A stretch of DNA of 58,445 nt from a virus, in the UHGV virus genome UHGV-0021275. The stretch is one strand, 5' to 3'. The position numbers were made by a program, and so were the translations under genes. The notes under the pieces were generated by a model. It was not told the DNA's origin, did not search any database, and worked only from the letters and a program-made list of their open reading frames with translations. Numbering within the stretch: the stretch's first letter is position 1; every line of letters begins with the position of its first letter. Shown one piece after another: positions 30,851 to 31,699 of this stretch.

Positions 30851-31699
30851 TTATGGGTTAAATTGCGCCGCGATTAGCGAAGGCACAGGCGCGTAACCGA
30901 GCTCATACAGGTCAAATAGCGCAGCGTCACCAACGTCTACCGGTACACCCACACACTGCGCAGCGTTGTCCAGTACCGCCAGCCAGTCCGGGAAAGACAT
31001 GTCATCGTCACGCATAATCTGCTGTGTGTGCTGCACCTGCATACGATCACCCACCTCGACACGACCACCCACCATAGCATCACCGGACACCTCCGCGAAG
31101 CCGTACACGCATGCCTCGTCATACACCTTCGCGAAGCCGCAGACTTTCGCGTGACCGTAGACCTTAGCACTCCCGCAAACCCGCGCGTTACCGTATACCT
31201 CAGCGCGACCAGACACCAGAGCATCACCGGACACCCGCGCATGACCGCGTACCACGGCCTCACCTTGTACGACAGCGTTATCGTATACATGCGCATAACC
31301 AGATACGACGACGTTATCGCGCACCCCCGCATTGCCGGATATATGCGCATGGCCATATACCCGCGCCTTACCGTATACTGCAGCGTAGCCGTATACTGCG
31401 GCGTTGCCAGATATTACGGCATTACCGTATACCCGTGCATTACCGTATACCGCAGCACCGCCCGATACATGTGCATTGCCGTATACTGCGGCGTTGTCAC
31501 ATATCCACGCGTCGTCGTCATCCTGGCTAAGGTTGTGCCCCCCCGCCACCCACCCGCCATAGTCCCCCGCTTCCACGTCATAATACGGCACATCACGTAA
31601 CGCACGAATGCGGTAAAGCGCAACACCATTAACAATCGTTGACTGGTCGTTCACTAACTCATATTTCATAGTTACCCCCGTGTGTTTATCCCCCGCCAT
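30851..31699 (-). CDS. Tandem hexapeptide-repeat protein (about 24 consecutive x-V-x-G-x-A units; predicted beta-helix)
   Basis: 282 aa. Central region reads AVYGNA HVSGGA AVYGNA RVYGNA VISGNA AVYGYA AVYGKA RVYGHA ... EVSGDA with strict 6-residue periodicity, flanked by non-repetitive N- and C-terminal segments. Confidence 0.65.
   Translation of the reverse strand: MAGDKHTGVTMKYELVNDQSTIVNGVALYRIRALRDVPYYDVEAGDYGGWVAGGHNLSQDDDDAWICDNAAVYGNAHVSGGAAVYGNARVYGNAVISGNAAVYGYAAVYGKARVYGHAHISGNAGVRDNVVVSGYAHVYDNAVVQGEAVVRGHARVSGDALVSGRAEVYGNARVCGSAKVYGHAKVCGFAKVYDEACVYGFAEVSGDAMVGGRVEVGDRMQVQHTQQIMRDDDMSFPDWLAVLDNAAQCVGVPVDVGDAALFDLYELGYAPVPSLIAAQFNP
31063..31504. repeat. 18-bp-periodic tandem DNA repeats (coding for the hexapeptide repeats)
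   Basis: Degenerate repeats such as gcgttaccgtatac / gcattaccgtatac seen directly in the sequence. They generate spurious ORFs on both strands. Confidence 0.6.

What the first reader, a model, noticed from the sequence alone, without database searches (positions are those of the whole stretch)
30851..31699. 24 perfect tandem hexapeptide repeats (x-V-x-G-x-A) in an early protein next to ArdA: candidate beta-helix anti-defence or DNA-mimic protein
Directly downstream of ardA in the same transcript is a 282-aa protein whose central ~145 residues are an uninterrupted 6-residue repeat (AVYGNA, RVYGNA, VISGNA ... EVSGDA). The periodicity is much more regular than in typical left-handed beta-helix acyltransferases, and there is no obvious acyl-CoA-binding context. 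Repeat beta-helices (for example pentapeptide-repeat proteins) are known DNA mimics; a hexapeptide version in a phage early region beside ArdA could be a different class of defence inhibitor. The repeat also makes the DNA internally repetitive.
Basis: partly seen in the sequence, partly recalled or inferred. Interest (0 to 1): 0.7.

Follow-up and report, generated by a model that had tools for sequence, protein, structure and literature searches.

The report
Phage YdcK-type left-handed beta-helix protein
The hexapeptide repeat is real, but the gene belongs to a very large, already catalogued and functionally uncharacterised family of phage early proteins built on a YdcK-type left-handed beta-helix, and it does not look like a DNA mimic.

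Summary
ORF 30851-31699 (-) lies 170-200 nt downstream of ardA and carries 24 to 26 in-register hexapeptides x-[VI]-x-[GD]-x-A with no insertion or deletion. The likely start is M11 at 31669, giving 272 aa.

It is not a new class. It passes Pfam PF18836 (YdcK beta-solenoid repeat) and matches PHROG 7964 and 5070, both of unknown function. [quoted passage not shown]

The family is large: more than 2,278 proteins and 507 confirmed IMG/VR stretches. Its members share a conserved cap, a rod of 9 to 36 units among the 120 best hits, and interchangeable C-terminal tails. This tail is a lineage-specific orphan.

The rod is charge-neutral (net +1), whereas ArdA is net -28, so DNA mimicry is disfavoured. 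No family-wide catalytic residue appears and Pfam Hexapep is below threshold, so a classical acyltransferase is also unlikely.

Across phages the conserved neighbours are paralogues, anti-repressors and recombination genes, not ArdA.

My best reading is a non-catalytic scaffold that presents a variable tail to a host target early in infection. That function is inferred, not shown. Interest is moderate to low.

The parts
30851..31669 (-). YdcK-type beta-helix protein gene, 272 aa from the probable start M11. The mechanical ORF extends to the upstream ATG at 31699 (282 aa).
   Evidence: ORF. Pfam PF18836 scores 60.8 bits against a cut-off of 30. PHROG 7964 E = 8e-88 and PHROG 5070 E = 1e-74. Start inferred from homologues and the Shine-Dalgarno-like run.
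31508..31669 (-). N-terminal cap, residues 11-64: a beta-hairpin plus the motif LYRIRALRD...AGDxGGWV...NLSQ...W. This is the most conserved part of the family.
   Evidence: Invariant or near-invariant columns. It aligns to YdcK residues 27-60. pLDDT is 94-98 in model 2.
31040..31507 (-). Left-handed beta-helix rod, residues 65-220: 26 uninterrupted hexapeptides, about 8.7 turns of 18 residues.
30851..31039 (-). Orphan acidic C-terminal tail, residues 221-282, plus the stop codon. Predicted with low confidence; two short helices at the end.
   Evidence: Among 1.84 billion representative proteins only the P0001 cluster matches. No Pfam hit. pLDDT is below 50 for residues 215-259. About 96% identical to the P0001 tail by inspection of the alignment.
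31022..31022 (.). Mosaic breakpoint at the rod/tail junction (residue ~226). DNA identity to the syntenic relative L002 jumps from 67% on the cap and rod side to 93% on the tail and downstream genes.
   Evidence: blastn of the window against L002.
31871..32398 (-). ardA, 175 aa from the internal ATG (MTTEITIT...). It is the upstream neighbour.
   Evidence: Pfam ArdA E = 2.5e-32. The L002 and L005 orthologues are 175 aa. Net charge -28.
31748..31795 (-). 15-codon remnant MTDFNALLREYFAEL*, an in-frame deletion scar of a 127-aa gene that is intact in relatives.
   Evidence: Sequence. Intact genes in L002 9531-9914 and L005 1620-2003.
30274..30795 (-). Downstream 173-aa gene of unknown function. 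It is conserved in the lineage whether or not a YdcK-type gene sits beside it.
   Evidence: ORF. No family hits. Homologous DNA in L001, L003 and L005 at 74-75%.

Best explanation
The gene encodes a cytoplasmic, early-expressed accessory protein of the phage YdcK-type family, with three modules.
1. A conserved N-terminal cap.
2. A rigid left-handed beta-helix rod of 26 hexapeptides. By calculation this is about 8.7 turns; at the usual ~4.8 A rise per turn (from general knowledge) it would be roughly 4 nm long.
3. A small lineage-specific acidic C-terminal tail.

I propose that it is not an enzyme and not a DNA mimic. It would work as a protein-binding scaffold. The conserved cap and rod would provide a stable, possibly trimeric platform, and the exchangeable tail and variable outward-facing repeat positions would bind a host protein soon after infection, either for host takeover or for counter-defence.

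Shown here: the fold, the family membership, the modular architecture, the mosaic evolution and the genomic position. Inferred: the early timing, the non-catalytic nature, the oligomeric state, and the existence and identity of a host target.
For: **Family and fold.**
- Pfam PF18836 is above threshold.
- phmmer to YdcK 2f9c gives E = 1.8e-18 and includes the cap.

**Scaffold rather than enzyme.**
- The only conserved rod positions are the structural ones. Over 3,318 units in 181 proteins, entropy is 0.9 bits at position 2 (V/I), 1.7 at position 4 (G/D) and 0.7 at position 6 (A). Position 1 has 3.65 bits, and His is at most 4% at every position.
- Rod length is free. P0001 shares a tail that is about 96% identical by inspection of the alignment, yet it is 67 residues (about 11 units) shorter. 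Among the 120 best hits, runs span 9-36 units.

**Modularity and rapid turnover.**
- There are about 30 unrelated C-tail groups among 112 tails from the 120 best hits plus the query, including DUF7666, DUF6378 and DUF1653.
- This tail is an orphan.
- A recombination breakpoint lies exactly at the rod/tail junction, and the cap resembles a paralogue elsewhere in a related genome.
- Tandem paralogues are the commonest neighbours: 23 of 119 downstream and 16 of 111 upstream ORFs.

**Early, host-directed context.**
- The gene is about the fifth in the leftward block that starts at the divergent region near 34 kb.
- In two Streptococcus phages it sits early in the rightward operon: directly after cro in Sfi19, downstream of the Cro/CI regulator in Javan318, and upstream of the Gam/Sak4 or Erf genes.
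- In 61 viral loci it sits between Ant/anti-repressor genes and Erf/RecE/exonuclease genes.
- In a Herelleviridae phage it lies next to the terminal repeat.
Against: - There is no experimental datum for any family member in the literature searched.
- The absence of an invariant catalytic residue is weak evidence, because repeat units cannot be aligned position by position.
- The strongly conserved polar residues of the cap (K12, R30, N56) could form an unrecognised active or ligand-binding site.
- Trimer formation and early transcription were not tested.
- The first AlphaFold run gave a different, apparently right-handed helix, so the fold assignment rests on the better run together with homology to a crystal structure.
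- The tail is predicted poorly, so it may be disordered rather than a binding domain.
Confidence: 0.5

Rival explanations
1. It is a genuine left-handed beta-helix acyl- or acetyltransferase (or a gamma-carbonic-anhydrase-like enzyme) that modifies a host or phage molecule early in infection.
For: - There are weak NCBIfam hits to GlmU and LpxA, E 1e-5 to 1e-2.
- Database names for relatives include 'acetyltransferase-like'.
- YdcK itself is deposited as 'putative transferase'.
Against: - Pfam Hexapep scores 10.4 bits against a cut-off of 27.
- All enzyme NCBIfam scores are far below their cut-offs.
- The helix has no loop or insertion at all.
- There is no invariant His, Asp or Glu in the rod.
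- The number of turns varies about four-fold among relatives, and by 11 units between proteins with near-identical tails. That is hard to reconcile with an active site of fixed geometry.
- No sugar-nucleotide or CoA-related neighbours were seen.
Confidence: 0.12
2. One reading: the beta-helix is a DNA mimic, like pentapeptide-repeat proteins or ArdA/Ocr, and it blocks restriction or another DNA-binding defence enzyme.
For: - It is adjacent to ardA in the same operon.
- It has an elongated rod shape.
- The whole protein is mildly acidic, pI 4.9.
Against: - The rod itself is neutral: K+R 13, D+E 12, pI 7.85. The acidity sits in the cap and the tail.
- ArdA has net -28 in 175 aa.
- Across the family the commonest residues at the most variable repeat position are R (22%) and K (13%).
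- Net charge among 13 homologues ranges from -30 to +5.
- The helix is left-handed and three-sided, unlike Qnr and MfpA, which are right-handed and four-sided (from my own knowledge).
- The ArdA adjacency is not conserved.
- The family occurs in only 21 of 72,556 plasmids.
Confidence: 0.05
3. It self-assembles end to end into filaments, as a bactofilin-like 'polymer-forming cytoskeletal protein', and perturbs host cell division or organises the infected cell.
For: - NCBI names relatives 'polymer-forming cytoskeletal protein'.
- Some homologues pass the Pfam Bactofilin threshold, for example P0005 with 39.7 bits against 27.9.
- The first AlphaFold run looked right-handed, as bactofilin is (from my own knowledge).
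- Partial Tyr ladders at repeat position 3 could favour stacking.
Against: - This protein has no Bactofilin hit at E <= 1.
- The confident model is left-handed and matches YdcK almost perfectly.
- Both helix ends are occupied, by the conserved cap and by the tail, which would hinder head-to-tail stacking. This last point is inference.
Confidence: 0.08
4. It is a decaying or dispensable accessory gene with no current function, and the repeat expansion is neutral.
For: - The slot is a gain-and-loss hot spot. A 127-aa gene has been reduced to a 15-codon scar just upstream.
- Relatives carry an 80-aa cap-only remnant at this slot.
Against: - The frame is intact over 272 codons with a perfect repeat register.
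- Structural positions are conserved while third codon positions have diverged.
- All five genomes examined in this lineage keep at least one full-length copy: the window, L001, L002, L003 and L005.
Confidence: 0.05

Closest known systems
YdcK of Salmonella/E. coli (PDB 2f9c, 2pig; NCBIfam NF040481; Pfam PF18836)
   Different: - The deposited YdcK chain is 334 residues; to my knowledge it is a chromosomal housekeeping-type gene.
- Its repeats are less regular.
- It lacks the phage-clade motif: RQVIAVT aligns where this protein has YRIRALR.
- It lacks the orphan tail.
- This protein scores 79.8 bits against the 350-bit equivalog cut-off, so it is a paralogous phage clade and not a YdcK orthologue.
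PHROG 7964 / 5070 phage proteins, e.g. Streptococcus phage Sfi19 orf229 and Lactobacillus phage LfeInf gp002
   Same: The architecture is the same: cap, then uninterrupted hexapeptide rod, then a variable tail. E = 8e-88 and 1e-74. The early-region position is also shared.
   Different: The tail class is different. The dominant class is DYxVxKNxWSSGRxFTYTRSNxxWxVGCFxGT, found in 60 of 112 tails, whereas this tail occurs only in the P0001-P0003 lineage. Best identity to any relative is 51%.
Left-handed beta-helix acyltransferases (LpxA, LpxD, GlmU, PglD-like; Pfam Hexapep PF00132)
   Different: There are no loops, no catalytic residue conserved across the family, and no extra catalytic or helical domain. 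Hexapep is below threshold. The Gly sits two residues after the inward-facing V/I, not one residue after it as in the canonical hexapeptide motif. That motif comparison is from my own knowledge; the repeat positions are.
Non-catalytic LbH scaffolds (dynactin p25/p27, carboxysome CcmN, gamma-CA-like subunits of complex I)
   Different: No sequence relationship beyond the repeat, and they belong to unrelated cellular systems. The analogy is inference.
Pentapeptide-repeat DNA mimics (Qnr, MfpA) and ArdA/Ocr
   Same: All are repeat or elongated proteins used against DNA-binding enzymes, and ArdA is the neighbouring gene.

Membership tests
YdcK beta-solenoid family (Pfam PF18836) / PHROG 7964, 5070 | Profile match above the curated threshold | tested here: met
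   PF18836 scores 60.8 bits against a cut-off of 30, with 5 matched stretches. PHROG 7964 E = 8.2e-88 and PHROG 5070 E = 1.3e-74.
YdcK beta-solenoid family (Pfam PF18836) / PHROG 7964, 5070 | N-terminal cap homologous to that of YdcK | tested here: met
YdcK beta-solenoid family (Pfam PF18836) / PHROG 7964, 5070 | Left-handed three-sided beta-helix | tested here: met
   Model 2 (pLDDT 93.3) has rmsd 1.2 A to 2f9c and 2.2-2.8 A to LpxA/LpxD. Caveat: model 1 (pLDDT 73.5) matched left-handed helices only at rmsd 11-15 A and right-handed ones at about 3 A. I judge that an artefact.
Bacterial YdcK orthologues (NCBIfam NF040481, equivalog) | Score above the equivalog cut-off | tested here: not met
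   79.8 bits against a cut-off of 350, and only profile positions 21-135 of 326 are matched.
LbH acyltransferases (Pfam Hexapep, trimeric LpxA-like enzymes) | Hexapep profile above threshold | tested here: not met
   10.4 bits against a cut-off of 27, E = 0.59.
LbH acyltransferases (Pfam Hexapep, trimeric LpxA-like enzymes) | Conserved catalytic residue (usually His) and acyl-CoA site on the helix | tested here: inconclusive
   There is no invariant polar residue in the rod in alignments of 64 and 81 relatives. His is at most 4% at every repeat position. Repeat units cannot be aligned one to one, so a site cannot be strictly excluded.
LbH acyltransferases (Pfam Hexapep, trimeric LpxA-like enzymes) | Homotrimer with active sites at subunit interfaces | not testable with these tools
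   No multimer prediction was available.
DNA-mimic anti-restriction proteins (ArdA/Ocr; pentapeptide-repeat Qnr/MfpA) | Dense negative surface charge along the rod, imitating the DNA backbone | tested here: not met
   The rod has K+R 13, D+E 12 and pI 7.85, whereas ArdA has net -28 in 175 aa. The family repeat consensus is not acidic at its most variable position. The surface was not mapped in three dimensions.
DNA-mimic anti-restriction proteins (ArdA/Ocr; pentapeptide-repeat Qnr/MfpA) | Right-handed quadrilateral helix of pentapeptides, or the ArdA fold | tested here: not met
   The period is 6, not 5. The helix is left-handed and three-sided. There is no ArdA profile hit.
Bactofilin (Pfam PF04519) | Bactofilin profile above threshold and a right-handed helix | tested here: not met
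   No hit at E <= 1 for this protein. The confident model is left-handed. Some homologues do pass the profile threshold.
Known anti-phage defence proteins (PADLOC-DB) | Match to any defence-system model | tested here: not met
   No hit at E <= 0.1.

The most novel reading that the evidence does not exclude
The phage YdcK-type proteins could be a large, unrecognised class of modular early effectors. They combine a constant cap, a length-variable left-handed beta-helix rod and a hypervariable C-terminal head, and they are often present as tandem paralogues. In this reading they neutralise host immunity or take over host machinery by protein binding, and the copy next to ArdA, with its orphan acidic tail, would be a counter-defence factor with a new mechanism.
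Probability: 0.2. Interest if true: 0.7.

Novelty: new member of a known kind. Interest (0 to 1): 0.35.

Why it matters
On its own this gene is an ordinary member of a catalogued family. It matters only because of what the family is.

- The family is very common in phages of Gram-positive and Gram-negative hosts.
- Wherever I examined the context it sits among early or host-takeover genes. This covers 61 viral loci and a few isolated phages.
- It shows the hallmarks of arms-race genes: tandem paralogues, free repeat number and swapped tails.
- I found no experimental information on any member.

A single informative experiment on any member would annotate thousands of phage genes. This lineage is a convenient entry point: it has an E. 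coli-type host, ArdA next door, and natural variants with long, short and cap-only forms.

The work also gives a practical warning. AlphaFold can flip the handedness of such repeats from one run to the next.

Tried and rejected
- **Nucleotide searches.** Megablast of the gene and of both halves of the window against phages found nothing. Megablast of 29000-33000 against complete E. coli genomes also found nothing. Only the ArdA region matched one 'plasmid', pSTEC648_2.
- **Aravind-lab origin of the domain.** I recalled that the YdcK solenoid domain might come from the 'polyvalent proteins' paper. That paper does not contain the words solenoid, YdcK or hexapeptide, so I dropped the lead.
- **Literature.** Six further searches (YdcK plus solenoid; YdcK; hexapeptide repeat plus phage plus anti-defense; polymer-forming cytoskeletal protein plus phage; the DUF and Pfam accessions; LpxA-like plus phage) found no functional study. 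The search on left-handed beta-helix, bacteriophage and early gene returned nothing relevant.
- **Foldseek.** Foldseek against the PDB with model 1 was uninformative, with best E = 0.1 and TM 0.22.
- **Model 1.** It appeared right-handed. I rejected it after the better-supported model 2 matched the homologous crystal structure.
- **C-terminal tail.** The word-indexed search found no candidate. The exhaustive search found only the tail's own lineage plus four long repetitive proteins that I regard as spurious. Pfam found nothing.
- **Viral contig scan.** The search for related loci failed with the full-length alignment and worked with a cap-only alignment.
- **Defence systems.** PADLOC gave no hits.
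- **Second copy.** A six-frame scan for a second hexapeptide-repeat gene in the window found none.
- **Tail-fibre or structural role.** I considered this and rejected it on position: the gene lies in the leftward replication and accessory block, far from the terminase-to-tail block.
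Full report
**1. The observation**

ORF 30851-31699 on the minus strand (282 aa) is present as described. From residue 65 the sequence reads WICDNA, AVYGNA, HVSGGA, AVYGNA, RVYGNA, VISGNA and so on to EVSGDA.
- There are 24 units in one register matching x-[VI]-x-[GD]-x-A. The single deviation is V at position 6 of unit 11.
- Two degenerate units follow (MVGGRV, EVGDRM). The rod therefore spans residues 65-220 without one insertion or deletion.
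- Sequence identity is 0.45-0.49 at lags 6, 12, 18 and 24, and 0.01-0.08 at other lags.
- Homologues start at MKYEL, and the second ATG (31669) has a GGGGG run 6 nt upstream. The protein is therefore probably 272 aa.
- ardA lies upstream on the same strand. The Pfam ArdA match has E = 2.5e-32, and the 175-aa form from the internal ATG matches the relatives.
- The gap holds no promoter-like or terminator-like site on that strand. Co-transcription is plausible but unproven.
- The DNA is only weakly repetitive. Lag-18 identity is 0.58 against 0.25 background, and third codon positions are 0.45 identical. The longest exact repeat is 19 nt, and TRF finds only about 2-copy arrays. These are old, diverged repeats and not an assembly risk.

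**2. What the window is**

The window is a phage-like genome.
- The plus-strand block holds the large terminase and a head-tail adaptor (connector) protein. The minus-strand block holds DNA polymerase A, helicase, primase/helicase and a ParB-like protein.
- GC skew switches near 34 kb, at the divergent region from which the ardA block is read.
- If the window is circularised, a 2,306-codon open frame crosses the junction. It is therefore probably a complete, permuted genome.
- It has no nucleotide match among 50,697 phage records. Its terminase is only 33% identical to that of any isolated phage.
- Relatives are 59-61.5 kb contigs from E. coli assemblies and one run assembly (L002, L003, L005), plus a 60.5 kb circular 'plasmid', pSTEC648_2.

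**3. What the protein is**

- It passes Pfam PF18836, the YdcK beta-solenoid repeat, with 60.8 bits against a cut-off of 30. Pfam Hexapep fails with 10.4 bits against 27.
- It matches PHROG 7964 (E = 8e-88) and PHROG 5070 (E = 1e-74), both of unknown function.
- The NCBIfam YdcK equivalog is hit at 79.8 bits, far below its 350-bit cut-off.
- The only significant solved structure by sequence is Salmonella YdcK, 2f9c/2pig. E = 1.8e-18, and the alignment includes the N-terminal cap.

**4. Fold and handedness**

I conclude that the protein is a YdcK-type left-handed beta-helix of about 8.7 turns with the YdcK cap. The C-terminal 62 residues are predicted poorly.

**5. The family**

- More than 2,278 proteins score E <= 1e-5. 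The best identity is 51%.
- 80 isolated phage genomes from very diverse hosts hold a relative. Hosts include Streptococcus, Liberibacter, Bacillus, Vibrio, Xanthomonas and Mycobacterium.
- Only 21 of 72,556 plasmids hold a relative. This is a phage gene, not a plasmid leading-region gene.
- Members share a strongly conserved cap. In this ORF's numbering the invariant columns are G45, G48 and G49. Near-invariant columns include K12, L28, R30, I31, A33, V42, N56, L57 and W65. The cap-only alignment agrees, in numbering from M11.
- The rod has 9-36 uninterrupted units among the 120 best hits, with a median of 20.
- Tails are interchangeable. There are about 30 unrelated groups among 112 tails, one of which accounts for 60 of them. 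Others carry DUF7666/DUF5758, DUF6378 or DUF1653.
- The family hexapeptide is x-[VI]-[YSF]-[GD]-[ND]-A. Positions 2, 4 and 6 are constrained and position 1 is nearly free.
- This protein's tail is found only in the P0001-P0003 lineage, even in an exhaustive search of 1.84 billion representatives.

**6. Local evolution**

- In the syntenic relative L002 the order is ArdA, a 72-aa gene, a 127-aa gene, then a 205-aa family member.
- That 205-aa family member, P0003 (the product of the L002 gene), and its relative P0001 carry the same tail. Against P0001, the pair I aligned, the tail is about 96% identical by inspection and the rod is 67 residues (about 11 units) shorter.
It rises to 93% from residue ~226 onward, through the tail and 4 kb of downstream genes. 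A mosaic junction therefore sits exactly at the rod/tail boundary.
- The window's cap is closer (77%) to the cap of a paralogue located about 7 kb further downstream in L005.
- L002 carries both copies. L001, L003 and L005 carry only the distal one. The window carries only the proximal one.
- In L005, and probably in L001 where the homologous DNA is present, the proximal slot holds an 80-aa cap-only remnant.
- In the window the 127-aa gene is reduced to a 15-codon in-frame scar, MTDFNA|LLREYFAEL.
- The slot is thus a gain-and-loss hot spot, yet all five genomes examined keep at least one full-length family gene.

**7. Context across phages**

- In Streptococcus phages the gene sits early in the rightward operon. 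In Sfi19 it follows cro and precedes the Gam-like and Sak4 genes. In Javan318 it lies downstream of the Cro/CI regulator and directly precedes Erf.
- In a Herelleviridae phage it lies next to the terminal repeat.
- In a phage that encodes its own RNA polymerase it lies just downstream of that polymerase gene.
- For 61 IMG/VR loci I scanned the two ORFs on each side against PHROGs. The commonest neighbour is another family member: 23 of 119 downstream ORFs and 16 of 111 upstream ORFs.
- The next commonest neighbours are Erf-like, RecE-like and other exonuclease or recombinase genes downstream, and Ant, anti-repressor or Rha regulators upstream.
- ArdA or other anti-restriction genes were not among the 25 most frequent families on either side. 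The ArdA adjacency is therefore lineage-specific.

**8. Mechanism**

*DNA mimicry is disfavoured.* The rod has net charge +1 and pI 7.85. The acidity lies in the cap and tail. ArdA next door has net -28. The family's variable surface position favours R and K.

*A classical acyltransferase is disfavoured.*
- The Hexapep profile fails.
- The helix has no loops.
- No catalytic-type residue is conserved.
- Rod length varies freely, even between proteins with near-identical tails.

*A bactofilin-like filament is disfavoured.* The fold is left-handed and both helix ends are occupied.

*What remains is a non-catalytic scaffold.* The best fit to the modular, fast-recombining and paralogue-rich architecture is a non-catalytic left-handed beta-helix scaffold. 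It would be analogous to dynactin p27 or CcmN, which are good structural matches. Its exchangeable tail and variable surface would bind a host protein early in infection. Whether the target is a defence system or a housekeeping machine is unknown. The position corresponds to the region that, in lambdoid phages, holds host-modulating genes such as ral, kil, cIII and gam (from my own knowledge). The conserved basic motif of the phage-clade cap, LYRIRALRD, is replaced by RQVIAVT in bacterial YdcK. It could be a second functional site.

**9. Verdict**

The finding is real, and its structural guess of a beta-helix is correct. The protein is nevertheless a new member of a known, catalogued, functionally dark family rather than a new class, and the DNA-mimic idea is not supported. 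An anti-defence role is neither supported nor excluded. I found no functional study of any member in the searchable literature.

Noticed in passing
window 31748-31795 (-): A 15-codon ORF, MTDFNALLREYFAEL*, equals the first 6 and last 9 codons of a 127-aa gene that is intact in relatives (L002 9531-9914, L005 1620-2003). It is an in-frame deletion scar between ardA and the beta-helix gene.
   Followed up: yes
L005 1381-1623 (the homologous DNA is present in L001 at about 7103-7294): In L005 the ArdA-proximal slot holds an 80-aa ORF that is only the N-terminal cap plus about two hexapeptides of a YdcK-type gene. It is either a truncated remnant or a cap-only protein. L001 carries the matching DNA, but I did not translate it.
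   Followed up: partly
window 31022 (rod/tail junction) and 31491-31667: Identity to the syntenic genome L002 jumps from 67% to 93% exactly at the end of the repeat rod. The cap is 77% identical to a distal paralogue in L005, which suggests recombination between paralogues.
   Followed up: partly
window 56488-58445 joined to 1-4960 (+): If the window is circularised, a 2,306-codon open frame spans the junction, so the window is probably a complete permuted genome. It encodes a very large protein, presumably tail or injection related, that I did not analyse.
   Followed up: partly
whole window; relatives L001 (pSTEC648_2, CP061838.1), L002, L003, L005: This is an undescribed ~58-61 kb phage lineage. 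TerL is only 33% identical to any isolated phage, and there is no nucleotide match in the phage collection. It carries a ParB-like gene, and one relative is deposited as a circular non-mobilizable E. coli plasmid, so it may be a phage-plasmid.
   Followed up: partly
AlphaFold models m2ddbb95429f6 and m46253310a968 of window 30851-31699 (-): Two AlphaFold runs on the same repeat gave opposite apparent handedness. The weaker run (pLDDT 73.5, but 90-97 in the rod) looked right-handed. The better run matched the YdcK crystal structure at 1.2 A. High local pLDDT did not protect against the error.
   Followed up: yes
window 30937-31356 (-), 31028-31600 (+), 31414-31635 (-): Long ORFs of 139, 190 and 73 aa in other frames or on the antisense strand lie inside the gene. 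They are by-products of the periodic sequence. Phage Sfi19's annotated orf129 inside orf229 looks like the same artefact.
   Followed up: no
phage records MK448905.1, MK448716.1 and others (Javan prophages); MG592510.1 and other Vibrio phages: Family members are annotated 'glycerol kinase' in Javan prophages. In Vibrio phage records they carry several 'CRISPR_spacer' features. Both are probably annotation artefacts, and the latter may be caused by the periodic DNA.
   Followed up: no
window 26001-32000: The early accessory block is richer in G+C (0.53-0.56) than the rest of the genome (0.45-0.54, mostly about 0.50-0.52).
   Followed up: no
IMG/VR loci L010-L088: About a third of the loci hold two or more YdcK-type genes in tandem, and many matches lie within a few kb of a contig end.
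   Followed up: partly
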